From assembly GCA_965215365.1 (NCBI GenBank), contig CBDCDS010000003.1, forward strand, positions 1,024,001 through 1,088,000: a stretch of DNA of 64,000 nt. The letters run 5' to 3'. Below are positions 10,681 through 60,337 of the stretch, in pieces (the first letter of the stretch is position 1; every line of letters starts with the position of its first letter). The notes below the pieces were generated by a model. It was not told where the DNA came from. It ran no database searches and saw only the letters and a list, made by a program, of their open reading frames with translations. Origin of the DNA: Gammaproteobacteria bacterium (GTDB taxonomy: Bacteria > Pseudomonadota > Gammaproteobacteria > Eutrophobiales > Eutrophobiaceae). The position numbers and the translations under genes were made by a program.

Positions 10681-10753
10681 TCCCGGAATTTTTTACTCTG
10701 ACCCCGGATACGGATAGAATACCCTGTTTGTAACGTTGAGAGAGAGAGAGACA

Positions 10754-44294: not shown

Positions 44295-45305
44295 ATGACA
44301 GTTTCCACCAGACACAGAACTGAGGCACGCAGCAACCGGGAGGCCGCCGGCAACACCGCGTCGTTGGGTGAGATTAAACTGCCTCTGGCCTGTTATCGTT
44401 TCCGGTTGCGTGCGCGGGAGACGATGCGCTTGCCGGATTATTCTGGATCCGCTTGGCGGGGGGCGTTCGGCAACAGCTTGAAAAAGCTGGTATGTATCAC
44501 CCGCGAACCACAATGTGAGCCTTGCTTGCTGTATCGCAACTGTATTTATCCTTATGTCTTTGAAACACCGCCTGACCCGAGCACAGGCAAACTGCGGAAA
44601 TACAATGCTGCGCCGCATCCGTTTGTACTACGCCCCGGAACCACCCTGAGAGGATATCTGCACCCGGATACCGAACACAACTTGTACCTGACGCTGTTCG
44701 GTCGCGGCAATAACCACCTTCCTTATATCATACACGCACTGGAGCGAGCGACCCAACGAGGCCTGGGCAAGCATAAAGGCAAATTTGATTTGCTGGAATT
44801 GCAACAATATCAGGCTGACGACTGGCGCGGGGTCTATACCCCCGGCGGTGAATTACAGCATCACGCCGCGACTTATGTGGATACGCCGGATTGTCCGGCG
44901 CGCATGACTCTTGAGTTTTTTACACCGATGCGCTGCAAGACTGAAGGTCACTTGGTGACACCGGAACGTTTTACCTTTAAGACGCTGTTCTCCTCCTTGT
45001 TAAGACGGCTGTCCTTGCTCACCACGTTTCATACCGATACCCCGCTGGCAACCGATTTCAAAGGGCTGACCCAGGCCGCCGGAGAAATACCCACGGCACA
45101 CTCTGAGTTACGCTGGCATGACTGGACCCGTTATTCCAGTCGCCAGGACACTCTGATGCAGTTGGGAGGCCTGTCAGGTACGGTAAGCTTCGAAAGCAGC
45201 GAGCTGGCCGTTTTCTGGCCCTACCTGTGGTTGGGACAATGGACTCATGCCGGTAAAAACACCAGCATGGGGCTGGGTAAATATAAAATCACCAACAGGT
45301 ACTGA
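44295..45305 (+). CDS. cas6: CRISPR pre-crRNA processing endoribonuclease Cas6
   Basis: GSAWRGAFG, CxxC..C motif, WTRYSSRQ, C-terminal G-rich loop HAGKNTSMGLGKY. Confidence 0.9.
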   Translation: MTVSTRHRTEARSNREAAGNTASLGEIKLPLACYRFRLRARETMRLPDYSGSAWRGAFGNSLKKLVCITREPQCEPCLLYRNCIYPYVFETPPDPSTGKLRKYNAAPHPFVLRPGTTLRGYLHPDTEHNLYLTLFGRGNNHLPYIIHALERATQRGLGKHKGKFDLLELQQYQADDWRGVYTPGGELQHHAATYVDTPDCPARMTLEFFTPMRCKTEGHLVTPERFTFKTLFSSLLRRLSLLTTFHTDTPLATDFKGLTQAAGEIPTAHSELRWHDWTRYSSRQDTLMQLGGLSGTVSFESSELAVFWPYLWLGQWTHAGKNTSMGLGKYKITNRY

Positions 45306-45317
45306 GCGGTGTCTGTG

Positions 45318-46562
45318 ATGAATGATATTGCCACAAAAACCAGGCCATCCTGCTCTCCGGCTGATTTCAAACGACGCATATTGCTGTGTGTAGCCGGTTT
45401 GTCCCCCCAGGTCATTACGGAAACGCTGTATGAACTGGTCACGCGCAAGGACCGGTTTATCCCAACCTGCATTTACGTCATTACTACGCGCGAGGGCGCA
45501 CACCGGATACGTCTCAACTTGCTGGAACCGGACCCGAACGAACAACATTTTCACCGGCTTTGCGCCGAACTGGATATCGATCCGGAAAGCATCGCGTTCC
45601 ATATTGATACCATCTGTCGAAACAGCCCCCCTACATCTGTCGGTATACCTGCTATCGGGGTCAGTCAGACAGCGCTGGCATCGGACATCGCAGTGCTGGA
45701 CGATATCCGTAGCATCACCGACAATGAAATTGCCGCTGACGCCATTACCAGTACCGTGCGCACCCTGACGGCAGACCCGGAGGCAGCAATCCACGCATCC
45801 ATCGCCGGCGGGCGCAAAACCATGGGTTTCTACCTGGGCTATACGCTGAGCCTGTTCGGACGGGAGCAGGACCGCCTGTCTCACGTTCTGGTATCGCCCC
45901 CATTTGAAGCGCATCCGCAATTTTACTATCCCCCGCAAAGCCCCAAGGTACTGCGTGACCGGGACAACCGGCCCATACACACCGGGGACGCCAGCATCAC
46001 ACTAGCTGATATTCCGTTCGTGCGTTTGCGCGGGCACTTGGACAGCAGCATCCTGGGTGAGGGCATAAGCTATTCAGAGACCGTCGCCCGCACCCAGCGC
46101 AATGTCAATCCGCCACACTTGGAACTGGATACAGCGAGCAAGTTGATAGATTGTGGCGGCTGTCGCGTTGAGCTGTCACCTAGCCTGTTTGCGTTTTATG
46201 CCTGGTTTGCACGCCGTCTGCTGGCAGGCAGGCCGGGAGTCCACTGGGCTCAGCCTGACGCCGCGCAAGAATACCTTGCCGAATATGCCCGAGTGGTCGG
46301 TGATTGCAGTGGCGACTACGAAAACGCGTGTAAAAGCCTGCAGCGGGGTATGGACCAGTCGTTTTATGAGCCGAAGATCAGTAAAATTAACCGTCGGCTT
46401 GAAAATATGCTCGGCAAGGGGCCGGCAAGACCGTATCTGCTGAGTAATATCGGCACGGTTCCCGGCACGCGTTATCGGCTTAAAGGGTTGACGTTGAAAC
46501 ATGAACAGGTACATTCGCAGGGAGAGCATATTCTATCGGCAAGCTTGCCACAGATAACATGA
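45318..46562 (+). CDS. CARF domain protein, NE0113/TIGR02584 family, with C-terminal winged-HTH
   Basis: ILLCVAGLSPQVITETLY, SIAGGRKTMG CARF motifs, LSHVLV; C-terminal LELD..GGCRVELSP...ISKINRRL resembles an OmpR-type wHTH. Confidence 0.8.
   Translation: MNDIATKTRPSCSPADFKRRILLCVAGLSPQVITETLYELVTRKDRFIPTCIYVITTREGAHRIRLNLLEPDPNEQHFHRLCAELDIDPESIAFHIDTICRNSPPTSVGIPAIGVSQTALASDIAVLDDIRSITDNEIAADAITSTVRTLTADPEAAIHASIAGGRKTMGFYLGYTLSLFGREQDRLSHVLVSPPFEAHPQFYYPPQSPKVLRDRDNRPIHTGDASITLADIPFVRLRGHLDSSILGEGISYSETVARTQRNVNPPHLELDTASKLIDCGGCRVELSPSLFAFYAWFARRLLAGRPGVHWAQPDAAQEYLAEYARVVGDCSGDYENACKSLQRGMDQSFYEPKISKINRRLENMLGKGPARPYLLSNIGTVPGTRYRLKGLTLKHEQVHSQGEHILSASLPQIT
46538..46549. promoter_or_regulatory. 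Candidate operator palindrome upstream of cas10
   Basis: Perfect GGCAAGCTTGCC about 60 bp before the cas10 ATG. Confidence 0.5.
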
Positions 46563-46610
46563 CAGAGTTGTTGTAGTAATATCACTGTGTGAATAATAAA
46601 ACCGCCTGCT

Positions 46611-49286
46611 ATGTCAGAACCATCCACTCTCATAACACCATCTGCACGCGTAGCGCTGGCTGCTTTTTTGCATGATCTTGGCAAGTTTGCTGAGCGGGCA
46701 AAAATTGACGCTTCTGACGAGCTTATCGAGAATAATAAGCAGCTTTATTGTCCCTATCACCAGGAAGGCAAGTGGTTCTCTCACGTACATGCGGCTTACA
46801 CTGCTATTGCTATGGATGAGATTGAATCCTATCTGCCACCCTTGAAAGGCCATGATGTAGCGCCTTTCGCAGCATGGAGCGCAGCTCAGGTGGATGACTC
46901 ACTTATCAATGGGGCTGCTAAACATCACAAACCGGAGACGTTTCTGCAGTGGGTTATTGCCACCGCTGATCGCGTGGCATCAGGTTTCGAACGTAATGAG
47001 TTTGAACAGTACAACAAGGCGAGAGAAGGCACAAAAGCCGGAAAAAACCATTACACAGCCCGCCAGTTGACCTTGTTCGAGCAGATAAGGCTGGAACACA
47101 AGAACAGACAACAGGAATATCAGTATCGTTACAAACTCAAGCCGCTTTGTCCTGACGCGCTGGCGCCTGTATCAGCACGGGATTATGAACCTGTCGATGA
47201 TGATGTGGCGCAAAGGGAGTACCGGGAGCTCTGGGATGGCTTCGTCGATGGGCTGAAAAAAATACCTGAAGCTCACAGGAAAAATCTGCCGTTGTGGTTG
47301 GGACATTTTGAGTCTTTATGGGCCTGTTTTACTCACGCCATCCCATCTGCCACGGCGTTCAACACCCGCCCGGATGTCTCACTTTACGATCATTCCCGTA
47401 CTACGGCAGCCCTGGCAGTGGCCATCTGGCGTTATCACCGCGAGCACGCGCATGATGAAGCTGAAGTGGTCCGGCGCACGAGTAAGCGAGATGATTGGGA
47501 TGAGAAAAAGTTATTGCTTATCCAGGGGGATTTTTTCGGAATCCAGAATTTCATTTTTGCGAGTGGCGGGGAAACCCAAAAGCGCGCCGCCAAGCTGTTG
47601 CGAGGGCGGTCGTTCTATGTGTCGTTACTGATGGAATGTGCGGCATTGAAAGTGCTCGATCTTTTGGGCTTGCCGGCGACCAGCCAGATCATCAACGCCG
47701 CGGGAAAATTCCTGATTGTTGCACCGAATACCGAAGCCGTGCAGGAGGAGTTGGCTCAAATCCAACAGGAGTTAGACCGGTGGTTCAAGGAACACACCTG
47801 GGCTGCCTCAGGGATTGGCCTTGCGTCGCTGCCGGCTTGTTGTAACGATTTCCTGAAACGCTCGGGGTCAGGTAATGAACCAGCCCCGTTTCAGCAACTG
47901 ATGGACAAGCTGTTTGCAAAGCTGGAGCAGGCTAAACTGCAACGTTTTGACCTGTGCAGTCAGACGCAGGAGTCGGCTGTTTTCAGCAGTTTTTTTAAGC
48001 AGTTTCAACCTGACAAGGGTGTTTGTCGGATCGATGGCAAATCACCGGCCACGCGCCAGGACGAGAATGATAGCGAGGTGTTCCTGAGTGATCTGGCGCA
48101 TGACCAGATTCGAGTTGGAGAATGTCTTACCCGGTACGAGCGTATATTGGTCACACGTTCAAACATCGACCACCATACCCTGCAGCTACCTGTGTTCGGG
48201 TATTTTGTCAGCTTCACTAGGGACGAAGAGATAACCGGCAGGTTCAGTAAACTGGCGGTGGATGGAGACCTTTTACAAGCCTTCGACTTCTCTCTACCTG
48301 AGTCCGGGGGCGCGCCTCTCTGGAACGGCTATGCCAGAAGGCAAATTAACGGTTCCGTGCCCAGGTTTCAGGATTCCGATCTGGAGCATCCGCACAAGTA
48401 CCGGGGAGTGGATGAGCCAGCCAGGATTGGCGAGGTAAAGACATTGAGTCACATTGCCTGTGAGGATGCAGGAGTTGAGGCATTGATGACTCTGAAAGGT
48501 GATGTGGATAATCTTGGACAGATATTCAAAGAAGGGCTGGTGCATCCGGGCGTGGAGGGGATGACCTTTGCCAAAATGGCAGCTTTGTCACGGCAAATGG
48601 ACGCTTTTTTCACAATATATCTGCCTTATCGATGTCGGCAGGATTATCCTGATACCTATACGGTATTCGCTGGTGGGGATGATTTTTTCCTGATCGGGCC
48701 TTGGCATTCGCAGCTCGGTCTGGCCCGGAAAATGCGATACTGGTTCAGTGAGTATGTTGCCCATAACCGCGAAGTGCATTTTTCGATTGGCCTGACCATG
48801 ACCAAGCCCGGGTTGCCAATACGCCACTTGGCAGCTCAGTCTGAACATGCTTTAGAAGCAGCCAAAGGGCATAATCTCCGAGCAGTAAAACCGGCGCCAA
48901 AGAATGCCGTTACCTGTTTCGGACACAGCGTTGGCTGGAATGAGTTCGAGGCGCTGATGGAAAATGTCAGCGCCTTGGAGATGTTGGCTGAAAAGATAAG
49001 GCTCAGTACAGGTTACCTGTATGGCCTGTTGCAGTTAACGGACATGCGGGCAGAAATTGATAAAAAACTGGAAAATGCCTTATGGCGCGCCTGGTTTGCT
49101 TATCGCACCAAGCGGATGCTTGAACGTGACCATGGTCTGGATGAGGAGCAACGACAGGAATATCAGAGTACATTAGCTGCAACCATCGCAGAAAATGGGA
49201 TACAAAAGCACAAACGAGCATACAAAATTGCCTTGTTTACCTATCTCTATCAACATCGTGGGGAAGAGGTTCTAATACATGAATAG
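46611..49286 (+). CDS. cas10: Type III-A Cas10/Csm1
   Basis: HD nuclease LHDLGKF, VSLYDHSR, LLRGRSF, KGDVDNLG and AGGDDFF palm motifs are intact. Confidence 0.96.
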   Translation: MSEPSTLITPSARVALAAFLHDLGKFAERAKIDASDELIENNKQLYCPYHQEGKWFSHVHAAYTAIAMDEIESYLPPLKGHDVAPFAAWSAAQVDDSLINGAAKHHKPETFLQWVIATADRVASGFERNEFEQYNKAREGTKAGKNHYTARQLTLFEQIRLEHKNRQQEYQYRYKLKPLCPDALAPVSARDYEPVDDDVAQREYRELWDGFVDGLKKIPEAHRKNLPLWLGHFESLWACFTHAIPSATAFNTRPDVSLYDHSRTTAALAVAIWRYHREHAHDEAEVVRRTSKRDDWDEKKLLLIQGDFFGIQNFIFASGGETQKRAAKLLRGRSFYVSLLMECAALKVLDLLGLPATSQIINAAGKFLIVAPNTEAVQEELAQIQQELDRWFKEHTWAASGIGLASLPACCNDFLKRSGSGNEPAPFQQLMDKLFAKLEQAKLQRFDLCSQTQESAVFSSFFKQFQPDKGVCRIDGKSPATRQDENDSEVFLSDLAHDQIRVGECLTRYERILVTRSNIDHHTLQLPVFGYFVSFTRDEEITGRFSKLAVDGDLLQAFDFSLPESGGAPLWNGYARRQINGSVPRFQDSDLEHPHKYRGVDEPARIGEVKTLSHIACEDAGVEALMTLKGDVDNLGQIFKEGLVHPGVEGMTFAKMAALSRQMDAFFTIYLPYRCRQDYPDTYTVFAGGDDFFLIGPWHSQLGLARKMRYWFSEYVAHNREVHFSIGLTMTKPGLPIRHLAAQSEHALEAAKGHNLRAVKPAPKNAVTCFGHSVGWNEFEALMENVSALEMLAEKIRLSTGYLYGLLQLTDMRAEIDKKLENALWRAWFAYRTKRMLERDHGLDEEQRQEYQSTLAATIAENGIQKHKRAYKIALFTYLYQHRGEEVLIHE

Positions 49287-49773
49287 TAAGAGACATCACA
49301 GCAACGAAAGCCAACAACACAGGCAGCACGGTGGGACACAATCCCGGTCAGGATTCCCTTTTGAAATAGAGCGTATCGCGCTTGCAGAGGATGAATTAAT
49401 GTCGGATATGTTCAGCAGTGTTGCGGAAGATGCCGCAAAACACGTAGCCGAATGGGATGAGCAGAGCAAGGAAGCAGGGAAGCAAGCCAGCAAATCGACA
49501 CAGTTGCGTAAGTTCTACGATGAGATTTGTATGTGGCACAGCAAGGTTCAAGATGATAGCGCGTGTCTGCAAAAAAACTTGCCTTTGATACTGATGTTGA
49601 AAGCAAAAGTTGCTTATTCGGAAGGTCGTAAACATGTAAACAAAGCCTATGTAAACGTCTTAAACCGTTGCTTGGATCAACTGCAAGCAAGAGCAGAGCC
49701 ACGAACACTTCAAAATCTGAAATTATTCATGGAGGCCTTTACCGGTTTTTACAAGGTTTACGGCCCAAAATAA
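49279..49773 (+). CDS. csm2: Type III-A small subunit Csm2
   Basis: STQLRKFYDE, KAKVAY, FMEAFTGFYK. Confidence 0.92.
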   Translation: MNSKRHHSNESQQHRQHGGTQSRSGFPFEIERIALAEDELMSDMFSSVAEDAAKHVAEWDEQSKEAGKQASKSTQLRKFYDEICMWHSKVQDDSACLQKNLPLILMLKAKVAYSEGRKHVNKAYVNVLNRCLDQLQARAEPRTLQNLKLFMEAFTGFYKVYGPK

Positions 49774-49788
49774 TCGGGAGATACCAAG

Positions 49789-50511
49789 ATGCAACTTACA
49801 GCAATCAGAATAATCACTGGAGAAATAGAGCTACTCAGCGGCTTACATATCGGTGGTGGCGATGCCGATATGCACATCGGTGGTATCGATAACGCAGTGA
49901 TCAAACATCCGGTTACACAGCAACCGTATATTCCCGGTTCCAGTATCAAGGGTAAAATGCGCAGTCTGCTGGAATGGGAGTTGGGAGTGGTTGGCCATAC
50001 GCAGGGGAAGCCACTCAGTTTCAGCCACGTTGAAAAGCTGGAAGACGACCAACAAGAAGGCGCTAAAATCATGCTGAAACTTTTTGGCGGCGCCCCCGAC
50101 AATAATGTACAACACCTAGTTAAGGAAATCGGCCCCACCCGTCTGGCTTTTTGGGACTGCTCCCTCGACACTGATTGGGTCAAGGAAATGGAAGACAGGA
50201 ATCTCCTGTTAACGGAGGCCAAGATGGAAAACTCCATCGACCGTATTCGTGGTGTGGCTGAGAACCCGCGTCAGACAGAGCGCGTGCCCGCCGGCGCGAA
50301 ATTCTGTTTCAAACTGAGCCTGCGTCAGCATGAAGGCGACGGCAACCTGATGGAGGTAATCCTCAAGGGGCTGCGTCTGATAGAGCTTTCCGGACTCGGA
50401 GGGTCAGGTTCGCGCGGTTACGGCAAGGTCAGGTTCAATAAGCTGGCCTGTGAAAACGAGTCTCTTGAAGAGCATATGAAAACTATTGATCCGTTTCTTT
50501 CTACGGACTGA
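49789..50511 (+). CDS. csm3: Type III-A RAMP Csm3
   Basis: GLHIG, IGGIDN (catalytic Asp), PYIPGSSIKGKMRSLLE, LGGSGSRGYG. Confidence 0.95.
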   Translation: MQLTAIRIITGEIELLSGLHIGGGDADMHIGGIDNAVIKHPVTQQPYIPGSSIKGKMRSLLEWELGVVGHTQGKPLSFSHVEKLEDDQQEGAKIMLKLFGGAPDNNVQHLVKEIGPTRLAFWDCSLDTDWVKEMEDRNLLLTEAKMENSIDRIRGVAENPRQTERVPAGAKFCFKLSLRQHEGDGNLMEVILKGLRLIELSGLGGSGSRGYGKVRFNKLACENESLEEHMKTIDPFLSTD

Positions 50512-50522
50512 TCGATATACCT

Positions 50523-51512
50523 GTGAAGCGCTATTGTATCACCGTCGAGCCGGAATCCGCTTTCGGCACGCCGCTAAAAGGCGACACCTTGTTTGGTCAA
50601 CTGTGTTGGGCGATTTTGAACCGGCACGGTCAGGAGCACCTGGAAGTATTATTGGGCGATTATTCGAGACGGCCCTTCGCTGTTTGTTCGGACGGTTTCC
50701 CCAACGCCTATTTACCGCGCCCATCCCTGCCTGTTTCCTGTTTCAGTCTCCCGCAAGGTGAGGATTACAAAGCTATCAAGAAAAGACTCTGGATACCTAT
50801 GGATACATTGGACGCTCCGGTCCCACAGTGGTTACACACTGCCAAATCGGACAGTGAACTGCCAGTCAAACCGGGCGTGAGCAAAGCACAACGCCAGAAT
50901 ACGCAAAAACCGACATGGGAACATTATCAGCCCCAACCACATAACAGCATTAACCGCCTGACCGGCACGACTGGCGAGGGCATGTTTGCCCCGTACAGTC
51001 AGCAGCAAATCTGGTATTGGCCAGGCAGTAGCCTCAATGTGTACCTGTTGCTTGATGAGACGCAATTATCCCTGCAGGAGGTCCGGACGTTGCTATGTGA
51101 TATCGGTGTTTTTGGTTATGGTCGCGACGCAAGTATCGGGCTTGGAAAATTCAGGTTGACTGATTGTGTCGAAGCGGAATTTAACGCGCCTGAAAATGCG
51201 AATGCCTGCCTGACGTTGGCGCCATGCGCCCCGCAAGGGATGGGCATGGATGGCCGCCACAGCTACTACAACACTGTTACTCGTTTCGGTCGTCACGGCG
51301 ATGTTGGCGTGCATGGGGCGCATGGTCCTTTCAAAGCGCCGGTACTATTGGCCGACACTGGCGCAGTATTTACCCCAGTCAAGGAAGGTCAAACCCGCAT
51401 CGGCCAGGCTCTTGGCGGACTCTCAAAGACGATTCCGGGCACAGTACACCAAGGCTATGCGCCCTGCGTCCCCATCTACCTGCCGCCAAAGACACAGCAG
51501 GTGATAACGTGA
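50523..51512 (+). CDS. csm4: Type III-A RAMP Csm4
   Basis: GDTLFGQLCW, SDGFP, HNSINRLTG, GYGRDASIGLGKF. Confidence 0.9.
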   Translation: MKRYCITVEPESAFGTPLKGDTLFGQLCWAILNRHGQEHLEVLLGDYSRRPFAVCSDGFPNAYLPRPSLPVSCFSLPQGEDYKAIKKRLWIPMDTLDAPVPQWLHTAKSDSELPVKPGVSKAQRQNTQKPTWEHYQPQPHNSINRLTGTTGEGMFAPYSQQQIWYWPGSSLNVYLLLDETQLSLQEVRTLLCDIGVFGYGRDASIGLGKFRLTDCVEAEFNAPENANACLTLAPCAPQGMGMDGRHSYYNTVTRFGRHGDVGVHGAHGPFKAPVLLADTGAVFTPVKEGQTRIGQALGGLSKTIPGTVHQGYAPCVPIYLPPKTQQVIT

Positions 51513-53140
51513 AATTTTTAGACGAGCATCATCTGGCAATTACCCTGCTGACACCGGTGCATATCGGTTGTGGTGAAGACTACACGCCGACTGATTACGT
51601 GATTGATGACGATGCCCTGTTTGCCTTTGACAGTGCTGGAATCATCAATGCGTTTTCGGAAACGGCCAGAATACAATTATCAAGGCTGGTCAGCGGCGCT
51701 GTAAAACCGGATGCTCTGATAAATATTCAAAAATTATTCTATGAGCAGCGCGAAGCTCTGATTGCAAAGGCCAGTCACTATCTTCCCGTTGCTGACGGAA
51801 TAATCGAGCTTTATCGAAAAAGCATAGGCAAGGCAGCCCAGCTGGAAAGTAAGGGAAAAAGAGTGGCAAATCGCTTGGAGATGGAACGCACGTTTTACAA
51901 TCCTGTCGACCAGAAACCTGTTATTCCGGGCAGCAGTTTGAAAGGAGCCATCCGGACGGCCTTGCTTAATTCGATAAACCAAGGCAACCCGCTCCGGCTC
52001 AATGAGAAAAACAGAAAATTACAAGGGCGATTGTTTCAATACGACAAGTTTGAAAATGACCCAATGCGGCTGGTGCATTTGGCTGACACGACGCATGACA
52101 GTGATGACATTGTTCATACTGAAATCCGATTTGCAACCAACCACCCCCGGCAGGAACCGAAACGGCCAAGGGGAAAGCAAACGCAGGCGGAAGCTAAAGG
52201 TCCGTATCAACTGTTGGAAATCTTGTCCGGGTTTGGTCCACGCCAATATCGTAGTCGATTAACTGTTCATAGTGTTGAACAAATACGACAAAACCACAGT
52301 TTGCCAAAAGTTGAACTTCGTTGGACAATCAAACAAATTGTGCAGGCCTGCAATGATTTTTATCTCCCGTTGCTGGAACAGGAATTGAAAATTATCAAAG
52401 AGAGGCGATATGCATCTCCCGATTGGGAACAGCAAATGGATGACCTCCTACCCAAAATCCGGCCCGTGCTCAAATCCAATCAGGCCATGGTATTACGCAT
52501 AGGACGCCATAGTGGCGCCGAAGCAGTAACTCTGAATGGTGTGCGGAGCATAAAAATCATGCAGGGAAGAGAGAAACCGAAGTTCAAAGACAAACCACAA
52601 ACCTTATGGTTGGCGGCCAATGCCCAAGACGCCCGTGCACAGATGCTTCCGTTCGGTTGGATTCTGGTTGAAATAAACCCTGCGGAAACGGTGCCGGCAG
52701 CATTGAGGAATTTTGCCGGTAAAACCAGTGACTCCAAGCAGAACTGGTTAAAAAAACAACAATGTCGAATTGCAGATTTACAGGACAAAATTACCCGTAA
52801 AGAGCAACAGGCTCAAGCCGAACAGCAAGCGGAGATTGATCGGCAAAGAGTGGATGCGGAAAAACAAGCGCGTTTGGCCTCCATGAGTAATGAAAAACGG
52901 GCTATCGAGGAGTTACGGGAGCAGTTCACGAAAGCCCAGGCATCCCAGACCTTGACTGCTCAAAGCGTAGTGCCCGATGAGTTAGCCAAGCTGCTCAAAC
53001 AGGCAAGTCAGTGGCCTGAGCGAGAGCGGACAGCCCTGTGCGATTTGGCAGAAGAAATCTACAAACCTCTGGGCATGTTGCGGGGGAAGAAAGGTAAAAA
53101 CCGCAAGACGATAATCCAACAATTAAAAGGACTGAGCTGA
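51509..53140 (+). CDS. csm5: Type III-A RAMP Csm5 with C-terminal coiled-coil extension
   Basis: LTPVHIGCG, IPGSSLKGAIRTA, LRIGRHSG, PFGW; GTG start overlapping the csm4 stop. Confidence 0.9.
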   Translation: MKFLDEHHLAITLLTPVHIGCGEDYTPTDYVIDDDALFAFDSAGIINAFSETARIQLSRLVSGAVKPDALINIQKLFYEQREALIAKASHYLPVADGIIELYRKSIGKAAQLESKGKRVANRLEMERTFYNPVDQKPVIPGSSLKGAIRTALLNSINQGNPLRLNEKNRKLQGRLFQYDKFENDPMRLVHLADTTHDSDDIVHTEIRFATNHPRQEPKRPRGKQTQAEAKGPYQLLEILSGFGPRQYRSRLTVHSVEQIRQNHSLPKVELRWTIKQIVQACNDFYLPLLEQELKIIKERRYASPDWEQQMDDLLPKIRPVLKSNQAMVLRIGRHSGAEAVTLNGVRSIKIMQGREKPKFKDKPQTLWLAANAQDARAQMLPFGWILVEINPAETVPAALRNFAGKTSDSKQNWLKKQQCRIADLQDKITRKEQQAQAEQQAEIDRQRVDAEKQARLASMSNEKRAIEELREQFTKAQASQTLTAQSVVPDELAKLLKQASQWPERERTALCDLAEEIYKPLGMLRGKKGKNRKTIIQQLKGLS

Positions 53141-53424
53141 TGCACCCGTTAATCGAGAAGCATCGCGCTGATATACTCGCTTTGGCTGAGCAGTACGGGA
53201 TTGAAAACGTGCGCGTGTTCGGTTCTATGGCAAGAGGCGATGCCGGGGATACCAGCGATGTGGACCTGTTGGTTTTTCTTCCAAAGGGCCAGAGCGCATT
53301 GGCTCTGGGGGGGCTGCTCATGGATGTTCAGGATTTGTTAAAGCGACATGTAGATGTAGTATCAGAACGAGGTCTGCACCCGATGCTGCGAGAGAACATA
53401 CTCAAGGAGGCAGTACCTCTGTGA
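53140..53424 (+). CDS. Minimal nucleotidyltransferase (MNT) antitoxin
   Basis: VFGSMARGD..SDVDLLV, VDVV. Confidence 0.9.
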   Translation: MHPLIEKHRADILALAEQYGIENVRVFGSMARGDAGDTSDVDLLVFLPKGQSALALGGLLMDVQDLLKRHVDVVSERGLHPMLRENILKEAVPL

Positions 53425-53783
53425 CCCCTACTTCGGAGTCTGATCGATTGATGCTGATGCACATACTTGATTGCATACAGCAGATCTGGGAATATACTGA
53501 AAACAGCCGGGAGGCGTTTTTTGGCTCACAAATGGTGCAGGATGCAACTGTACGTAATCTGCAAGTGCTAGCTGAATCCACCCAGAGACTCAGTGAAGCC
53601 ATCAAGGCTACCCAACAGGATATTCCCTGGCGCAAAATTGCCGGTTTCCGCAATGTTCTTGTCCATAGTTACCTGAGCCTCGACCTTGAGGCAGTATGGT
53701 CTGTAGTTGAGCATAATCTGAAAGATTTGTCTGAGGCAGCGGAAGCAATGTTGCTTATGGCGGACAAGGACACCAAGCCTTGA
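53421..53783 (+). CDS. HEPN/DUF86 ribonuclease toxin
   Basis: QDATVRNL, IPWRKIAGFRNVLVHSY (Rx4H). Confidence 0.9.
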   Translation: MTPTSESDRLMLMHILDCIQQIWEYTENSREAFFGSQMVQDATVRNLQVLAESTQRLSEAIKATQQDIPWRKIAGFRNVLVHSYLSLDLEAVWSVVEHNLKDLSEAAEAMLLMADKDTKP

Positions 53784-53947
53784 CGATGAAACTAGTTAAA
53801 GCAGGGCCCGCCTTAGTGGTGCGACGCTCAGCCTATCTTCAAGACGCCATAGATCAGCGTACCTACAAAAAAACAAATGACAGCAGCCAGCGCAATGAAC
53901 TCGATCATATTTTTCCGACCTCTTTGTAATTGAAACACTGTGTTTCC

Positions 53948-55266
53948 ATGAACAAGAAAATCCTTGTCCAGACCGTCGGCGGTTCCCATGAACCGATTCT
54001 TACGTCTATAAAAGAGAACAAGCCTGATTTTATCTGTTTTTTCTGCTCTGGCAAAGACTTGGCGACAGGCAAGCCGGGCTCCGAGAAACAGATTACCGGG
54101 AGGGCAGTGTTATCAAAAAGAGCCCCGGGGATGACAGCCCCAGCCTCCCCAATATTCCTACGTTGGCAGGCCTTGAGAAGGACCAATACGAGGTAGTCAT
54201 CATTCCTGCCGATGAGCCGGATGCAGCATTCAAAAAAATATCCGAGCGTTTGCACAAATTGATATCGCAACATCCGGGGGCTGCTTTTATTGCCGATTAC
54301 ACCGGCGGCACTAAATCGATGACCGCTGCTCTGGTACTGGCAGCAGTGGAACACAGAGAGGTTACCCTGCAACTGGTTACTGGCAATCGAGTCAACTTGC
54401 ATGGTGTGGAATCCGGCATGGGGACAACCGGATTAATACCTATGGAAACCGTTCGTGTGCAGCGGGCCCTTACTCAATTCACCGAGTTCTGGCGCTATTT
54501 TTCCTATGGTGAAGCAGCACGAGGCCTAGTCAACATTAAACCTGCCAAGCCCGGGTTGAAACGCAAGCTAAGAGTATTACTGGATTTAAGCAAGGCCTTT
54601 GGCGCTTGGGACCGGTTTGACCATCAGCAGGCACATAACATCATCGGCAATTATGGCAAGCTGATCGCACCGGCCCATCAGCATCTTCTGAACTCATTAA
54701 CAAATCTTACAACGAAATCAGACCGGCAAACCCTCGGCCTGTTGTGGGACTTGTGGTTCAACGCTTTGCGCCGCGCTGAGCAGGGACGTTATGATGATGC
54801 GGTTGCTCGCTTGTATCGCCTGTTGGAGTGGACTGCACAGTGGATTTTGCAGGTCAATTGCGGTGTCGACAAGACTGGTGATATTCCAGCAGACAAAATA
54901 CCCTCCAGCATGTCCTTACAAGCAAACCCGAAAGGCCAATACCAGGCTGGCCTGCTCAAGGCATGGGAACTGGTCGGCCATCATCACCCGGACAAGAATA
55001 GTGCGGCTTTCCAATTCAGTAAGTGTAAGTTGAAGGCGATGCAGACACAGCTTGAGAAGCGGAACTACTCCATACTGGCTCACGGCTTCAGTCCCATCAG
55101 CGAGGAAGACTGGCGTGCCTTCAGAAACTGGATGAAAGAAAATTTTCTACCCATGCTGAAAATGGAAACGCAGGGAGCCGGGCTAAAAACAATCCCGCAG
55201 CAACTGCCGCAGCGCACTTGGCCAGAGATAGAGCAAATGGATAACATTGCCGACAGTTTCAACTGA
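53948..55266 (+). pseudogene. TIGR02710-like CARF-HEPN CRISPR effector split by a 1-bp frameshift near 54098
   Basis: TVGGSHEPI N-terminus in one frame; ADYTGGTKSMTAAL, GRYDDAVARLYR and RNYSILAHG in another; adding one G at GGG 54098-54100 gives continuous TGEGSVIKK..LPNIPTLAGL. Confidence 0.78.
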
Positions 55267-55336
55267 GTTACGGAGTCCGGGAAATGCTCCCATAACGGCG
55301 TGGATTGGAACAAGTGTGGCAACTTGATCTTTACTC

Positions 55337-55352
55337 ACGGCAAGCTTGCCGT
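55337..55352. promoter_or_regulatory. Candidate operator palindrome upstream of cas2-cas1
   Basis: Perfect 16-bp ACGGCAAGCTTGCCGT, adjoining an upstream TTTACTCA. Confidence 0.55.
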
Positions 55353-55377
55353 CCCACCTGAGCGCCGGTTTTTGTGA

Positions 55378-55671
55378 TTGACTCCCAATGTGAAACGCCG
55401 ACTCTACCTTGCAGCCTACGACATCAGCAGCGCCAGTCGACTGCGGGCCGCACTGTATTTTCTGAAAGGGTTCGCCAGCGGTCGCCAGAAGTCTGTGTTT
55501 GAGTGCTTCCTGACAATGCCGGAACGCAAGGAGTTGGTAACAGGCATCAGTAACATCATTGAGCCGGACGAGGATCGTTTTTTATTGTTACCGCTGGCTT
55601 ATGGTGCCGGCATCGAAACTTTAGGCAGGGGTGTGGCACCGTCAGATGAATCCTATTACTACATAGGGTGA
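55378..55671 (+). CDS. cas2: CRISPR-associated Cas2 (first copy)
   Basis: YLAAYDI, QKSVFEC, ED motif. Confidence 0.88.
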   Translation: MTPNVKRRLYLAAYDISSASRLRAALYFLKGFASGRQKSVFECFLTMPERKELVTGISNIIEPDEDRFLLLPLAYGAGIETLGRGVAPSDESYYYIG

Positions 55672-56642
55672 ACAGTATGCTGACCCTGTTCATTGACCGT
55701 AAAAACCTGAAACTGGAACTCGATAATAAATGCCTTTTGGTGCGCCCACCCGGCGCTGTGGTTCAAAGCCTGCCCTTGAATATACTGGACCGTGTTGTCA
55801 TCCGCAGTCAGGTTGCCTTGGATAGTCGCCTGTTGGGAGCCTTGGGGCAGCACAACATTGGTCTGAGTATCATGTACGGCCGCAACGGTCGCCAACATTT
55901 GCAATTATTCAGTCCGGGACACAATGATGCGCGGCGTCGACTTGCCCAGTATGCGCTTTGGAACGATACGCAACGCCGCCTCGACTGGAGTCGCCACCTG
56001 GTGGATGCGAAAGTCTGCGCCCAACGAAGGCTTCTGGAGTACGCGCGTGCACGCCGCCCGGACTTGCGTCATCGACTCACCACCGCTCTGAAAAGTCTGA
56101 ACAATATTATGCCTTCTATTGACAAGGCCACCGACATTGAGGTTTTGCGCGGCCTGGAAGGTTCATCGGCAGCCGTTTACTTCACTGGTTTTCAAAACCT
56201 TTTTGCCGACGGCCTGACATTCACCGGGCGTAACCGACGCCCGCCACGAGATCCGGTTAATGCCTGCCTGTCCTTGGTATATACCATGATCCACAATGAA
56301 GCTGTGCGCGCCTGTCATGGCGCAGGACTGGACCCCTTGCTGGGTTTTTACCATGAACCGGCTTACGGTCGTGAATCCCTGGCCTGTGACATTATTGAAC
56401 CCCTGCGCCCACGGGTTGATCATTGGGTCTGGCAATTGTTTCGCAAGCGTTTGTTAAGAGAAGATAATTTCAGCCGTGAGGGTGGGAGTTGCCTGCTTAA
56501 CAAAAGCGGGCGCAGGATCTTTTTTGAGGGATATGAAACCGAAGCCACACCGTGGCGCCGTTACTTTCGTTTGCAAAGCTATCGCATGGCACGCGCCCTG
56601 TTACAACTTGCTCCGGACTTGCCTGAACTGGAGAGCTCGTGA
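55668..56642 (+). CDS. cas1: CRISPR-associated endonuclease Cas1
   Basis: LRGLEG (E), RNRRPPRDPVNACLS, GFYH (H), SLACDIIEP (D/E). Confidence 0.95.
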   Translation: MNSMLTLFIDRKNLKLELDNKCLLVRPPGAVVQSLPLNILDRVVIRSQVALDSRLLGALGQHNIGLSIMYGRNGRQHLQLFSPGHNDARRRLAQYALWNDTQRRLDWSRHLVDAKVCAQRRLLEYARARRPDLRHRLTTALKSLNNIMPSIDKATDIEVLRGLEGSSAAVYFTGFQNLFADGLTFTGRNRRPPRDPVNACLSLVYTMIHNEAVRACHGAGLDPLLGFYHEPAYGRESLACDIIEPLRPRVDHWVWQLFRKRLLREDNFSREGGSCLLNKSGRRIFFEGYETEATPWRRYFRLQSYRMARALLQLAPDLPELESS

Positions 56643-57403
56643 AACCTTGTTACATTCACGGCAAACAGGGTATGCAGATCAGGTTGGATGGTCCGGCACT
56701 GAGCGTCGACGTGCCTGGACAGTCTGCCGTGTTGACGCCGCTCTCCCGGATTTCCCGCATCGTTGTTTCCGGTTCGCCTGACTGTTCGGTGGCGGCTTTG
56801 CTTGCCTGTGCCGAACAAGGGATCACTATCACGTTCCTGCAACATGACGGCGCAGTCAGGGCGCAGTTATTTGGCAACAGCAAGACCCGAGGGGATTTAT
56901 TCACCCACTTGCGCGACCTGCTGGACCGTCCTGACTGGCCGGAGCACTACCAGCTCTGGCTGGAGTCTTCGGCTAGTCGTGCACGATGTGCGCTGTGCCG
57001 TAAATTGGGCTTGCAGCCAGACAGGTCGTCTGGCAGGCGACTGTCTTCGATTCTGAGCAGGCAGATGGATTATCTGATTGACCCGGGTAAACGGGGCTAC
57101 CTGCAACGCCGTCTGCGCGGCTTGTGTGTCGCCTTGGTCAATGAGGTATTACAGCAGGCAGGTCTTGACGCAACACGCTGCCGTTACTTGGAGCAACATC
57201 TTGACATACCGGGTGATTTCGCAAACCTGCTGGCTTTATCCCTGCAGTTGCCACTGATTGACTGGTTGAAGCGGCAATCACGAAATGAACGTATTGACGA
57301 CCGTGATGTGGTTGCGCTATTTGAGCGAAACAGTAAGAGGCTGGAAAATATTGCCCGGCGCTTGACCAGCCGCTTACATGGATTTTTGATTGACCTTACA
57401 TGA
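56639..57403 (+). CDS. Cas1-like protein (N-terminal beta domain kept, catalytic domain degenerate)
   Basis: PLSRISRIVVSG..ALLACAEQGITITF resembles the Cas1 N-terminus; no EG, NxxLS, H or D motifs seen. Confidence 0.6.
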   Translation: MKPCYIHGKQGMQIRLDGPALSVDVPGQSAVLTPLSRISRIVVSGSPDCSVAALLACAEQGITITFLQHDGAVRAQLFGNSKTRGDLFTHLRDLLDRPDWPEHYQLWLESSASRARCALCRKLGLQPDRSSGRRLSSILSRQMDYLIDPGKRGYLQRRLRGLCVALVNEVLQQAGLDATRCRYLEQHLDIPGDFANLLALSLQLPLIDWLKRQSRNERIDDRDVVALFERNSKRLENIARRLTSRLHGFLIDLT

Positions 57404-57717
57404 AGCAAAGACTCTATCTCATCGCTTATGATATTTCAGACCCTGGACGCCTTGGGCGCGTGGCCAGATACTTGAGCAAACACGCCTGCCGGGTGCAGTA
57501 TTCAGTGTTTGCCGCGCAGCTGAGCAAATCCCGCTTAAAGGGTTTGCTTTCTGAGCTTGAGGAGATAATAAACCCGGATCAGGATGACATCCGCGCCTAT
57601 CCATTGCCCGCCCGCGGTGAGGTAACGTTGTTGGGTCAACAATTCTTTGCAACCAGCGCGTTACTGGTGCAAAATGGCCCCTGTAGATTGGAACTTCTTG
57701 AAGACCCTGTCGCCTGA
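57400..57717 (+). CDS. cas2: CRISPR-associated Cas2 (second copy)
   Basis: YLIAYDISDPGRL, RVQYSVF, DDIRAYPL. Confidence 0.92.
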   Translation: MKQRLYLIAYDISDPGRLGRVARYLSKHACRVQYSVFAAQLSKSRLKGLLSELEEIINPDQDDIRAYPLPARGEVTLLGQQFFATSALLVQNGPCRLELLEDPVA

Positions 57718-57904
57718 AATAGTCTCTGACTTTTGCGTGATAGGTGAACGTGAGGATTTTGTTGCTCTTTCAAAATCTGGCATTGGATTGAATCAATCTG
57801 TGAAAAATGGTAGCTTGGCTGTGCGGCTGCTCTCGCAGCAGGCTGTTTTTTCTGCAATCACCCTTGTAAGTGATTGTTTGAAAAAGTTCTTCTTGGCGCG
57901 GGGG
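57718..57904 (+). promoter_or_regulatory. CRISPR leader
   Basis: AT-rich non-coding region between cas2 and the first repeat; IHF-like site TAAGTGATTGTTT at 57867-57879 (1 mismatch). Confidence 0.75.
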
Positions 57905-60238
57905 GTTTGAACCGCAGACCTGATTAAGAAGGGATTAAGACCCGGTGGAGCACGAAAAACAAAACTCGCCCATCATGGTTTGAACCGCAGACCTGATTAA
58001 GAAGGGATTAAGACAAAGGTTGGCGTCGATGAGGTCGGCGTGGCTCAAGTGTTTGAACCGCAGACCTGATTAAGAAGGGATTAAGACCCCAGATTGGCGC
58101 CTTCTAGGTTGGCGGCGCTCAGGTCGTTTGAACCGCAGACCTGATTAAGAAGGGATTAAGACCAGCGCATGATCGACTATTTCGATCATGCGCTGTTCGT
58201 TTGAACCGCAGACCTGATTAAGAAGGGATTAAGACATTGTGCGCTGGGGGTATGATATAATTGCGATGTTTGAACCGCAGACCTGATTAAGAAGGGATTA
58301 AGACCAAGTTGGCGCCGGTGAGGTCGGCGTCTTCCAAGTTGTTTGAACCGCAGACCTGATTAAGAAGGGATTAAGACGGTGAGGTTGGCGCGTTTCAGGT
58401 TGGCGCCATCTAGGTTTGAACCGCAGACCTGATTAAGAAGGGATTAAGACTCACATAACCTGTGGTGATCAGGTTATGTTCTTCTGTTTGAACCGCAGAC
58501 CTGATTAAGAAGGGATTAAGACTTTCAATCATGCGCTGCTCTTCGGAAAGCCTAGCTGTTTGAACCGCAGACCTGATTAAGAAGGGATTAAGACCGCTAA
58601 TTTGTGGTTTAAGAAAAAAGTCATGGTGACGTTTGAACCGCAGACCTGATTAAGAAGGGATTAAGACCATACAGCTTGTCTCCCTTTTTGACGTATTGGT
58701 TGTTTGAACCGCAGACCTGATTAAGAAGGGATTAAGACCAGCAGCGCTTGATCGACTATTTCAATCATGCGCTGCGTTTGAACCGCAGACCTGATTAAGA
58801 AGGGATTAAGACCCTTCTTTAACTCGGCTTGCCATTCCCGCCGAGGTTTGAACCGCAGACCTGATTAAGAAGGGATTAAGACTTCCTTGAACAAAACATT
58901 CCCCCACATCAGGCTGTTTGAACCGCAGACCTGATTAAGAAGGGATTAAGACGGCGCCTGTCAGGTTGGCGCCTTCCAACTTGGTTTGAACCGCAGACCT
59001 GATTAAGAAGGGATTAAGACTGATGGGCTTCCCGAATTTATCGCTCAAGTAGTCTAAAGTTTGAACCGCAGACCTGATTAAGAAGGGATTAAGACTCTTG
59101 GCGCCGGCGAGTTTGGCGTCTTCCAACTTGGTTTGAACCGCAGACCTGATTAAGAAGGGATTAAGACAATAGGGCGGAATTTAAGGCCGCCGGATTTTTG
59201 GGTTTGAACCGCAGACCTGATTAAGAAGGGATTAAGACTTGGCGCAGTAGAGGTTGGTGCCTTCCATCTTGTTTGAACCGCAGACCTGATTAAGAAGGGA
59301 TTAAGACGCTTCTTTACGATCTTCTTTGCTTCTTTTTTGCTGTGTTTGAACCGCAGACCTGATTAAGAAGGGATTAAGACGCGCCGAATGCAATGGAGAT
59401 TCTCGCGAATCACGATCAGTTTGAACCGCAGACCTGATTAAGAAGGGATTAAGACGCTCCTCGTAGTCCATCCTGTCGTCGATTTTGGTCGTTTGAACCG
59501 CAGACCTGATTAAGAAGGGATTAAGACGTACGCTGTTGGCTCCCTACTTCTGCCTGTGACGCCGTTTGAACCGCAGACCTGATTAAGAAGGGATTAAGAC
59601 AAAAAAGCGCCAAGCGCAAATCTACCGAAACTGAAGAGTTTGAACCGCAGACCTGATTAAGAAGGGATTAAGACGCACAGCGCTGCCGATCCACCGATTG
59701 ATATGGTGGTGTTTGAACCGCAGACCTGATTAAGAAGGGATTAAGACTCATCATCATGTATAGGCCTTTTTTGTGTAATTATTGTTTGAACCGCAGACCT
59801 GATTAAGAAGGGATTAAGACGCCTCTGATTGTTGCGCCTCAACCTGATCATTGGTTTGAACCGCAGACCTGATTAAGAAGGGATTAAGACGACAGAATGT
59901 TACGTTTTCTAGTCGGGCAGCAACGTTTGAACCGCAGACCTGATTAAGAAGGGATTAAGACGAGGTCGGCGCCGTTCAGGTTGGCGCCAGTGAGGGTTGT
60001 TTGAACCGCAGACCTGATTAAGAAGGGATTAAGACTTGGTGATCCCGTTGATGTTGTTGCCGGACAAGGTTTGAACCGCAGACCTGATTAAGAAGGGATT
60101 AAGACATTAATGGGAAAAGTCAAGTGATTTTTCACCGCCGAAGTTTGAACCGCAGACCTGATTAAGAAGGGATTAAGACGGCATCTCCTCTAGTAGGTTT
60201 TAAGTTAAATGGAAGGTTGAACCGCAGACCTGATTAAG
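57905..60238 (+). CRISPR. Type III CRISPR array: 32 identical 37-bp repeats + truncated terminal repeat, 32 spacers (31-38 bp)
   Basis: Repeat GTTTGAACCGCAGACCTGATTAAGAAGGGATTAAGAC; the 3' ATTAAGAC tag, leader position and degenerate last repeat all indicate + orientation. Confidence 0.99.
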
Positions 60239-60337
60239 TCGCTTATTGCCTTGTGAAACATGATTGCTCTCAATAAGTTATGATCATACTGCTACTCTTT
60301 CCGCATAACCCACTGCGCTTGATGCGCCCTCGCTGGT
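60237..60337 (+). repeat. 101-bp dispersed repeat, copy 2, abutting the truncated last CRISPR repeat
   Basis: About 93% identical to 3349-3449. Confidence 0.85.

What the first reader, a model, noticed from the sequence alone, without database searches (positions are those of the whole stretch)
58015..59998. A quarter of the type III spacers target pentapeptide-repeat genes, all antisense
Seen: the reverse complements of 8 of 32 spacers translate to A(D/N/K)Lxx pentapeptide repeats. They are S2 58015-58050 LSHADLIDANL; S3 58088-58125 DLSAANLEGANL; S6 58305-58340 NLEDADLTGANL; S7 58378-58413 LDGANLKRANLT; S15 58953-58983 KLEGANLTGA; S17 59096-59130 KLEDAKLAGAK; S19 59239-59270 KMEGTNLYCA; and S29 59962-59998 TLTGANLNGADL. 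All are different sequences, all in the same orientation, and they run from the leader end to the old end. Established: Csm complexes need crRNA complementary to a transcript and tolerate mismatches. Inference: there is long-running selection for RNA targeting of one repetitive protein family, and one crRNA could hit many repeats or paralogs. The target could be a highly expressed early gene of a persistent phage or element (pentapeptide proteins such as Qnr/MfpA are DNA mimics, so possibly anti-defence), host paralogs under CRISPR control, or a co-occurring organism. No pentapeptide gene is present in this window.
Basis: partly seen in the sequence, partly recalled or inferred. Interest (0 to 1): 0.88.

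Follow-up and report, generated by a model that had tools for sequence, protein, structure and literature searches.

The report
CRISPR memories aimed at pentapeptide-repeat gene
A bacterium's RNA-targeting CRISPR array, and a second DNA-targeting array elsewhere in the same genome, both store many memories of one unidentified foreign gene made of five-residue repeats, most likely a hot spot on a virus or plasmid that is not in any database searched.

Summary
Array A (window 57905-60250) has 32 spacers and lies downstream of a complete type III-A csm operon. Eight spacers, at the stated coordinates, read as A(D/N)Lxx repeats on their reverse complement. Five of 31 pass a strict stop-free motif test, against 36 of 20000 random own-genome 36-mers and 0 of 253 spacers in seven related arrays (looser motif).

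New here: a second array (type I-G, C3:474889-477583) holds 3 more such spacers among 36. Its leader-proximal spacer overlaps array A's S3 by 14 exact bases, and the inferred flank is TTG, the known I-G PAM. So at least one spacer pair points to the same foreign gene.

The host has no matching gene, which rejects self-regulation. No protospacer turned up in phage, plasmid, viral, metagenome or genome collections, or in 185 related genomes, so the target is unidentified.

The antisense orientation of 8 of 8, and the focus on one gene, fit published type III behaviour: strand selection and early-gene acquisition hot spots. The three I-G spacers share that orientation, but TTN PAM asymmetry explains it, so they add nothing for RNA targeting.

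Verdict: a real, moderately interesting new example of a known phenomenon. What is new is the target class.

The parts
44295..45305 (+). cas6 (crRNA-processing endoribonuclease)
   Evidence: PF10040 CRISPR_Cas6, E 1.4e-19
45309..46562 (+). NE0113-family protein, named 'CRISPR-associated ring nuclease Csm6' by NCBIfam
   Evidence: TIGR02584, 221.6 bits; PF09623
46611..49286 (+). cas10/csm1, with an HD motif at residues 20-21 and GGDD at residue 688
   Evidence: TIGR02578, 692.8 bits against a cut-off of 170; motifs found
49279..53140 (+). csm2, csm3, csm4 and csm5
   Evidence: TIGR01870, TIGR02582, TIGR01903 and TIGR01899, all above their cut-offs
53140..53783 (+). Nucleotidyltransferase/HepT pair embedded in the operon
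   Evidence: PF01909 and PF01934
54163..55266 (+). CARF/HEPN Csm6-type effector
   Evidence: TIGR02710, 179.5 bits; PF09670 Csm6 HEPN; an R-x6-H motif at residue 300
55378..57717 (+). Adaptation genes: cas2, cas1, a short cas1-like ORF, and a second cas2. No reverse transcriptase and no cas4.
   Evidence: PF09827 and PF01867. The Cas1 scores best against Cas4g/Cas1g and Cas1c models, but below their cut-offs.
57718..57904 (+). Leader of array A
   Evidence: Non-coding gap between the cas2 stop and the first repeat
57905..60250 (+). CRISPR array A: 32 exact 37-nt repeats plus a degenerate last copy, 32 spacers
   Evidence: weak CRISPR-DR32 match on the + strand
58015..58050 (-). S2, reverse complement reads LSHADLIDANL
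58088..58125 (-). S3, reverse complement reads DLSAANLEGANL. It overlaps spacer A2S36 of the type I-G array by 14 exact bases.
58305..58340 (-). S6, reverse complement reads NLEDADLTGANL. It matches I-G spacer A2S16 at 27 of 30 bases.
58378..58413 (-). S7, reverse complement reads LDGANLKRANLT
58953..58983 (-). S15, reverse complement reads KLEGANLTGA
59096..59130 (-). S17, reverse complement reads KLEDAKLAGAK
59239..59270 (-). S19, reverse complement reads KMEGTNLYCA
59962..59998 (-). S29, reverse complement reads TLTGANLNGADL. It matches A2S36 at 24 of 26 bases.

Best explanation
The eight spacers are memories of one family of foreign pentapeptide-repeat genes. The carrier is a mobile element that repeatedly attacks this bacterium, most likely a phage, and is absent from public collections.

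Shown:
- The spacers code for pentapeptide repeats on one strand only.
- They are enriched far above chance.
- They are specific to this genome.
- They occur in two independent CRISPR systems, with one pair of spacers overlapping.
- The host lacks such a gene.

Inferred:
- The gene lies in a part of the invader that is sampled preferentially by adaptation, namely the first-entering or earliest-transcribed region. This is the region type III systems are reported to favour.
- In the type III-A array only spacers whose crRNA pairs with the mRNA protect the cell, so selection left 8 of 8 in the antisense orientation.
- Interference would then run the standard Csm course: the crRNA binds the nascent transcript, Cas10 HD DNase and cyclic-oligoadenylate synthesis are switched on, and the CARF/HEPN RNases are activated.
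- The repetitive target may allow partial cross-recognition among repeats or variants. This was not tested.
For: 1. Enrichment. 5 of 31 spacers pass the strict motif and 8 of 32 pass by eye. Background is 0.18% for random own-genome 36-mers and 0 of 253 for related arrays.

2. Second system. The type I-G array at C3:474889-477583 (Cas4/Cas1 fusion, Cas3, GSU0053, GSU0054) has 3 of 36 such spacers.
- The suffix of A2S36 equals the prefix of the S3 reverse complement for 14 nt exactly.
- The flank of A2S36 inferred from that overlap is TTG. This fits the TTN PAM of type I-U/I-G, seen in passages of PMC6547450.
- A2S16 matches S6 at 27 of 30 bases and A2S36 matches S29 at 24 of 26.
- A2S36 is leader-proximal. 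cas2 and an AT-rich leader lie on that side.

3. Not self. No protospacer lies in the own genome. There is only one weak PF00805 ORF, and it is unrelated in sequence.

4. Orientation of array A is +. The chance of 8 of 8 antisense without bias is about 0.004.

5. Published behaviour of type III systems.
- A strong strand bias arises by selection (PMC7515739, abstract).
- Natural and laboratory type III-A spacers concentrate on early phage genes just downstream of an early promoter (PMC13575424, abstract and section 17).

6. Phages do carry such genes in early or regulatory regions.
- Ralstonia phage BHDT_So9 ORF31 (Autographiviridae) lies upstream of the primase. PF00805 E is 6e-43.
- Bordetella phage IFTN6 gp49 lies near the repressor. 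PF00805 E is 1e-49.
Against: No protospacer was found for any spacer in any collection (listed under Tried and rejected). Phage origin, early expression and a single gene as source are therefore all unproven.

Inter-spacer similarity does not separate the models. 7 of 55 pairs reach at least 80% identity over at least 24 nt. Different repeats inside one ordinary pentapeptide gene give 6.8% of 7700 random pairs at that level. So 'the same site in variant phages' cannot be told from 'different repeats of one gene'.

The 14-nt overlap lies in repetitive sequence, so it is strong but not conclusive.

The three I-G spacers share the antisense orientation, but this is explained by PAM asymmetry. TT occurs 24 times on the antisense strand and 6 times on the sense strand of the array A pentapeptide spacers. 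They therefore give no support for RNA-level selection.

A sequence-driven orientation bias of the type III adaptation module cannot be excluded. Only one 5' flank could be inferred, that of S9, and it reads CTA rather than TTN.
Confidence: 0.6

Rival explanations
1. Adaptation artefact. The pentapeptide sequence is over-sampled, and oriented, by a property of the DNA itself, and the spacers are not kept by RNA-level selection. That property could be a motif preferred by Cas1-Cas2, a PAM-like signal, or frequent DNA ends or stalled forks in the repeat.
For: - Both a DNA-targeting and an RNA-targeting system sampled the same short region, which points to a DNA-level hot spot.
- Five array A spacers (S2, S6, S15, S17, S19) align with offsets of only -1 to +1, so they share one end register.
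- The type III-linked Cas1 scores best against Cas1g/Cas1c models.
- PAM asymmetry alone explains the orientation in the I-G array.
Against: - GGCGCC, the palindrome that fills these spacers, is not avoided in the host. Observed over expected is 0.95, with 4103 sites. So there is no sign of a matching restriction enzyme creating ends.
- The III-A locus has no cas4.
- The one inferable 5' flank in array A is CTA, not TTN.
- Without selection, type III acquisition took spacers from both strands in Thermus (PMC7515739, abstract).
Confidence: 0.17
2. The target is not a phage gene but an early-expressed gene of a conjugative plasmid or integrative element, or several unrelated pentapeptide genes from different invaders or from DNA of a co-occurring organism rich in such genes.
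For: - Plasmids of Azospirillum, Ralstonia, Streptomyces and Acaryochloris carry pentapeptide genes that give the best, though weak, matches: 87-89% over 34-39 nt.
- Related orphan arrays sit on small plasmids, so plasmid conflict is plausible.
- One I-G spacer, A2S4, is lower in GC and may come from a different gene.
Against: - The overlap and near-identity links between spacers of the two arrays argue for one gene family rather than many unrelated genes.
- Those database matches have E-values of 0.06 to 0.8 and reflect shared codons only.
Confidence: 0.18
3. Self-regulation: the crRNAs control the host's own pentapeptide-repeat paralogs.
For: One 88-aa pentapeptide ORF does exist at C3:473767-474030, about 860 bp from array B.
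Against: - No spacer matches the own genome outside the arrays beyond 19-25 nt.
- The single ORF is unrelated in nucleotide sequence.
- The genome is 97.6% complete in 3 contigs.
Confidence: 0.03

Closest known systems
Early-gene, antisense-biased spacer content of type III-A arrays (Streptococcus thermophilus, PMC13575424; Thermus thermophilus, PMC7515739)
   Same: The system is type III. Spacers cluster on a small part of the invader. All are in the orientation that lets the crRNA pair with mRNA. There is no reverse transcriptase fused to Cas1.
   Different: Here the target is unknown, so 'early gene' is inferred rather than shown. The target is a tandem-repeat protein gene. A co-resident type I-G array sampled the same region, whereas in S. 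thermophilus the DNA-targeting arrays were spread genome-wide.
Type I-U/I-G adaptation with TTN PAM selection by a Cas4/Cas1 fusion (Geobacter sulfurreducens, PMC6547450)
   Same: Array B lies beside a Cas4/Cas1 fusion, Cas3, GSU0053 and GSU0054. Its spacers are 35-39 nt. Its repeat ends in AGC in the reading direction. The one inferable protospacer flank is TTG.
   Different: The PAM could be inferred for only one spacer, and by way of a spacer of the other array. Interference was not tested.
Phage-encoded pentapeptide-repeat proteins (for example Ralstonia phage BHDT_So9 ORF31, Bordetella phage IFTN6 gp49)
   Same: Same protein repeat family (PF00805). They sit among early or regulatory genes.
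   Different: Nucleotide matches to the spacers are only 86-94% over 31-36 nt, with E from 0.002 to 0.8. These genes are not the protospacers. As far as I saw, their function in those phages is not established.

Membership tests
Type III-A (Csm) CRISPR-Cas | Cas10/Csm1 with HD and GGDD motifs | tested here: met
   TIGR02578 scores 692.8 bits against a cut-off of 170. HD is at residues 20-21 and GGDD at residue 688.
Type III-A (Csm) CRISPR-Cas | Csm2, Csm3, Csm4 and Csm5 subunits | tested here: met
   All four equivalog models score above their cut-offs.
Type III-A (Csm) CRISPR-Cas | Adjacent array processed by Cas6 into crRNAs with an 8-nt 5' tag | not testable with these tools
   cas6 and the array are present. 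The tag ATTAAGAC is inferred from the repeat's 3' end by recalled knowledge. There are no RNA data.
Type III-A (Csm) CRISPR-Cas | Transcription-dependent interference | not testable with these tools
   Needs an experiment.
Type III early-gene / antisense spacer bias | crRNA complementary to the coding strand's transcript | tested here: met
   In 8 of 8 pentapeptide spacers the repeat frame is on the reverse complement of the + strand array. Transcription of the target is assumed.
Type III early-gene / antisense spacer bias | Target is an early-expressed gene just downstream of an early promoter | not testable with these tools
   No protospacer was found in any collection.
Pentapeptide repeat family (PF00805), for the targets | Tandem A(D/N)LXX units in one open frame | tested here: met
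   5 of 31 spacers pass a two-unit stop-free motif, and 3 more pass by eye and by similarity. An HMM test is not possible on 10-12 residues.
Type I-G (I-U) CRISPR-Cas, array B | Cas4/Cas1 fusion, Cas3, GSU0053 and GSU0054 proteins | tested here: met
   Pfam matches.
Type I-G (I-U) CRISPR-Cas, array B | TTN PAM 5' of the protospacer | tested here: inconclusive
   1 of 1 foreign flank inferable reads TTG (A2S36, by way of S3). The self-matching spacer A2S18 has GAT.
Self-targeting / regulatory CRISPR | Protospacers of these spacers lie in the host's own genes | tested here: not met
   blastn-short of all 31 + 36 spacers against the genome. No pentapeptide spacer has a match outside the arrays.

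The most novel reading that the evidence does not exclude
A phage or plasmid that preys on this bacterium puts a pentapeptide-repeat protein, a DNA-mimic-type fold and perhaps an anti-defence factor, at the very front of its infection programme. Because that gene enters and is transcribed first, and because its tandem repeats give each crRNA several partly matching sites per transcript, it has become the shared hot spot of two different CRISPR systems. Successive spacers (S19, S17, S15, S6, then S3 and A2S36) would then record an arms race with variants of that one gene.
Probability: 0.25. Interest if true: 0.7.

Novelty: new member of a known kind. Interest (0 to 1): 0.45.

Why it matters
If the target is recovered, this locus would be a natural case, outside Streptococcus and Thermus, of the type III early-gene hot spot. 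It has a built-in comparison: a type I-G array in the same cell that sampled the same roughly 60 nt. That comparison would help separate acquisition bias from selection.

It would also mark a pentapeptide-repeat gene as a key early function of an unknown mobile element, and so a candidate anti-defence protein. And it would let one test whether repeat-rich transcripts are especially good type III targets.

As it stands, the finding is a well-supported pattern in spacer content with an unknown target.

Tried and rejected
Protospacer hunts, all negative:
- Whole array A by blastn against phages and plasmids.
- Array B against phages and plasmids.
- In those four searches the only hits were E 0.002-0.8 matches to unrelated pentapeptide genes, plus related CRISPR repeats.
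- Exact or IUPAC patterns in viral contigs (8 of 8 scans used), metagenome contigs (2 of 2) and genome contigs (2 of 2). All returned 0 stretches.
- Array A against 60 relatives and against 125 genomes of the same order. These searches scored only 4 and 2 first-look candidates per genome, so their sensitivity is limited.
- All 67 spacers against 30 pentapeptide loci of relatives. The best match was 26 of 29.

Other leads that failed:
- Apparent hits in G053 and G003 fell in threonine synthase-like and FtsZ-like ORFs, so they are chance matches.
- LUZ19 gp6 has no Pfam pentapeptide match, so I dropped that lead.
- Restriction-end idea: GGCGCC is not depleted in the host, so I rejected it.
- Single repeat copies or a one-spacer remnant in G006, G009 and G010 hold no pentapeptide spacer.

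Sequencing runs:
- Only one run was listed, X1, a Hi-C library.
- Laying it on the array gave low depth. Most reads were 90-95% alike and came from a related array with a T>G repeat variant and other spacers. There was no evidence of a protospacer.

Literature: searches listed no paper whose title or abstract start reports CRISPR spacers concentrated on pentapeptide-repeat genes. I opened only two of the listed papers, and each merely mentions a phage pentapeptide gene. Supplements were not consulted and are closed.

Full report
**What is there**

The window is G000:C3:1024001-1088000 of a 2.73-Mb, 57.9% GC proteobacterial genome in three contigs. NtrY-type kinase, sigma-54 regulator and ZapD genes are present.

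Window 44295-57717 carries, all on the + strand:
- cas6
- an NE0113/Csm6-type ring nuclease
- cas10/csm1, csm2, csm3, csm4 and csm5
- a nucleotidyltransferase/HepT pair
- a CARF-HEPN protein
- cas2, cas1, a short cas1-like ORF and a second cas2

The NCBIfam equivalogs name it type III-A. Cas10 keeps its HD and GGDD motifs. There is no reverse transcriptase and no cas4.

After a 187-nt gap, array A starts at 57905. It has 32 exact 37-nt repeats and a degenerate last copy near 60217, giving 32 spacers of 31-38 nt.

Five things put the reading direction on the + strand:
- the position of the operon
- the position of the leader
- the decayed distal repeat
- a weak + strand match to Rfam CRISPR-DR32, at 23 bits and below the gathering score
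- a repeat 3' end, ATTAAGAC, that resembles the usual 8-nt tag (this last point is recalled, not tested)

**The observation**

A strict test asks for two consecutive pentapeptide units in a stop-free frame. It flags S2, S3, S6, S7 and S29, which is 5 of 31, all in reverse-complement frames. S15, S17 and S19 are shorter. I count them because they read KLEGANLTGA, KLEDAKLAGAK and KMEGTNLYCA, and because they are 75-84% identical at the DNA level to S6 and to each other.

The background is low:
- 36 of 20000 random 36-mers of the own genome pass.
- 300 shuffles gave a mean of 0.02 flagged spacers per 31.
- 0 of 253 spacers pass the looser form of the motif in seven arrays of the same repeat family. 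These arrays are a Methylocaldum szegediense plasmid and five unnamed relatives, one of them with two arrays.

So the enrichment is real and peculiar to this genome.

**A second array tells the same story**

The only partial matches of array A spacers in the own genome turned out to be spacers of another array, at C3:474889-477583. It has 37 identical repeats and 36 spacers.

That array lies next to a minus-strand operon with GSU0053, GSU0054, Cas3 and a Cas4/Cas1 fusion, which makes it type I-G (formerly I-U). Cas2 and an AT-rich leader lie on its right side, so it is read on the minus strand. In that direction its repeat ends in AGC, as reported for the Geobacter I-U repeat (PMC6547450, passages).

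Three of its 36 spacers (A2S4, A2S16, A2S36) encode pentapeptide repeats. The links to array A are:
- A2S36 is the leader-proximal, and so newest, spacer. Its last 14 nt equal the first 14 nt of the S3 reverse complement. The other ends match at 15 of 16.
- A2S16 matches S6 at 27 of 30 nt, and A2S36 matches S29 at 24 of 26.
- Reading the flank of A2S36 from S3 gives TTG directly 5' of the protospacer on the crRNA-like strand. This is the TTN PAM that the Cas4/Cas1 fusion selects.

This consistency supports the view that S3 and A2S36 come from one stretch of one foreign gene.

**What it is not**

The host has one weak PF00805 match, an 88-codon ORF at C3:473767-474030 scoring 37.9 bits. It does not resemble the spacers. 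No pentapeptide spacer has a protospacer in the genome. Regulation of host paralogs is therefore rejected.

GGCGCC, the palindrome that fills these spacers, is not depleted in the host (observed over expected 0.95). So I found no sign that a matching restriction enzyme feeds adaptation.

**Where the spacers come from**

I could not find out. All searches for protospacers were negative. They are listed in Tried and rejected, with the limits of each.

The weak hits do show that GC-rich phages and plasmids of proteobacteria and actinobacteria often carry pentapeptide-repeat genes:
- In Ralstonia phage BHDT_So9 (Autographiviridae) the gene sits among small early genes upstream of the primase.
- In Bordetella phage IFTN6 it lies near the repressor.
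- In Gordonia phage Sisko the matching 90-codon gene is the third from the right genome end. I did not test that gene for the family.

These are analogies, not targets.

**Orientation**

For array A, 8 of 8 spacers are antisense. Independent unbiased insertions would give that with a probability of about 0.004.

For Thermus, strand bias is reported to arise by selection, with unbiased acquisition (PMC7515739, abstract). For S. thermophilus, natural type III-A spacers lie mostly on the template strand and over early genes, with a transcription-dependent acquisition hot spot just after an early promoter (PMC13575424, abstract and section 17). The present pattern fits both reports.

The three I-G spacers share that orientation, but this carries no weight for RNA targeting. 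TT, the PAM core, occurs 24 times on the antisense strand and 6 times on the sense strand of the array A pentapeptide spacers.

**One gene or many variants**

S2, S6, S15, S17 and S19 align with offsets of -1 to +1, so they share one end register. S6, S15, S17 and S19 read as variants of (K/N)(L/M)E(G/D)(A/T)xL. That looks like repeated sampling of one site in diverging invaders.

My control says otherwise. Random non-overlapping 36-mers from within single pentapeptide genes reach at least 80% identity over at least 24 nt in 6.8% of 7700 pairs. The observed figure is 7 of 55. The data therefore do not decide between variants of one site and different repeats of one gene.

**Flank check against the tag**

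S9 and S12 overlap by 17 exact nt. S4 is a two-base variant of S12, so three spacers hit one other, non-pentapeptide, site.

Suppose the reverse complement is the transcript. Then the 3' flank of the S9 target reads TAGTCGAT. By my own pairing, worked, this pairs with the tag at only 3 Watson-Crick positions plus one wobble out of 8, and at none of positions -1 to -3. This one target would therefore not be mistaken for self.

**Verdict**

The best reading, at confidence 0.6, is a recurrent foreign pentapeptide-repeat gene that is a shared adaptation hot spot and, in the type III array, is filtered for mRNA-complementary orientation.

It is a new example of a known kind of bias. What is new is the target class and the agreement of two CRISPR types on one short region.

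Noticed in passing
G000:C3:476178-476213 (array B spacer A2S18) and C3:645672-645707 (L016:9672-9707): A type I-G spacer matches the host chromosome at 36 of 36 bases, in the AT-rich intergenic stretch directly upstream of dnaN (dnaN-recF follow). The flank on the crRNA-like strand is GAT, not the TTN PAM, which may be why the match is tolerated.
   Followed up: partly
window 55378-57717: The type III-A locus carries a doubled adaptation module: cas2, cas1, a 254-codon ORF that matches only the N-terminal part of Cas1, and a second cas2. The full Cas1 scores best against Cas4g/Cas1g and Cas1c models.
   Followed up: partly
window 53140-53783: A nucleotidyltransferase/HepT (MNT-HEPN type) gene pair sits inside the csm operon, between csm5 and the CARF-HEPN gene.
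   Followed up: no
window 58163-58198 (S4), 58739-58775 (S12), 58523-58557 (S9), 58451-58485 (S8): S4 and S12 are two-base variants of one site, and S9 overlaps S12 by 17 nt, so three spacers hit one roughly 55-nt target. S4 holds a perfect 14-bp inverted repeat, and S8 also forms a 10-bp hairpin.
   Followed up: partly
G000:C3:473767-474030: The only pentapeptide-repeat ORF in the genome (88 codons stop to stop, PF00805 37.9 bits) lies about 860 bp from the distal end of the type I-G array.
   Followed up: partly
L004 (NZ_OX458334.1, about 9700-10720) and L005 (NZ_CP133219.1, 11297-11405): Small plasmids of Methylocaldum szegediense and Thiothrix lacustris carry orphan arrays of the same repeat family, with 15 and 2 repeats and no annotated cas genes. 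Both plasmids also encode a siphovirus Gp157-family protein.
   Followed up: partly
G000:C3:2323413-2324279 and C3:2120222-2120935: Long arrays of identical 72-nt tandem repeats, open in both strands (11 and 6 copies). They are not CRISPR because there are no variable spacers.
   Followed up: no
window 60223-60300: In run X1 this stretch just past the array has about 260-fold higher depth than the array and many variant letters. It looks like a multi-copy element.
   Followed up: no
window 57905-60216, run X1: Most reads of the Hi-C run that touch the array carry a T>G change at repeat position 21 and other spacers. A related strain or species with a sister array seems to be present in that sample.
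   Followed up: no
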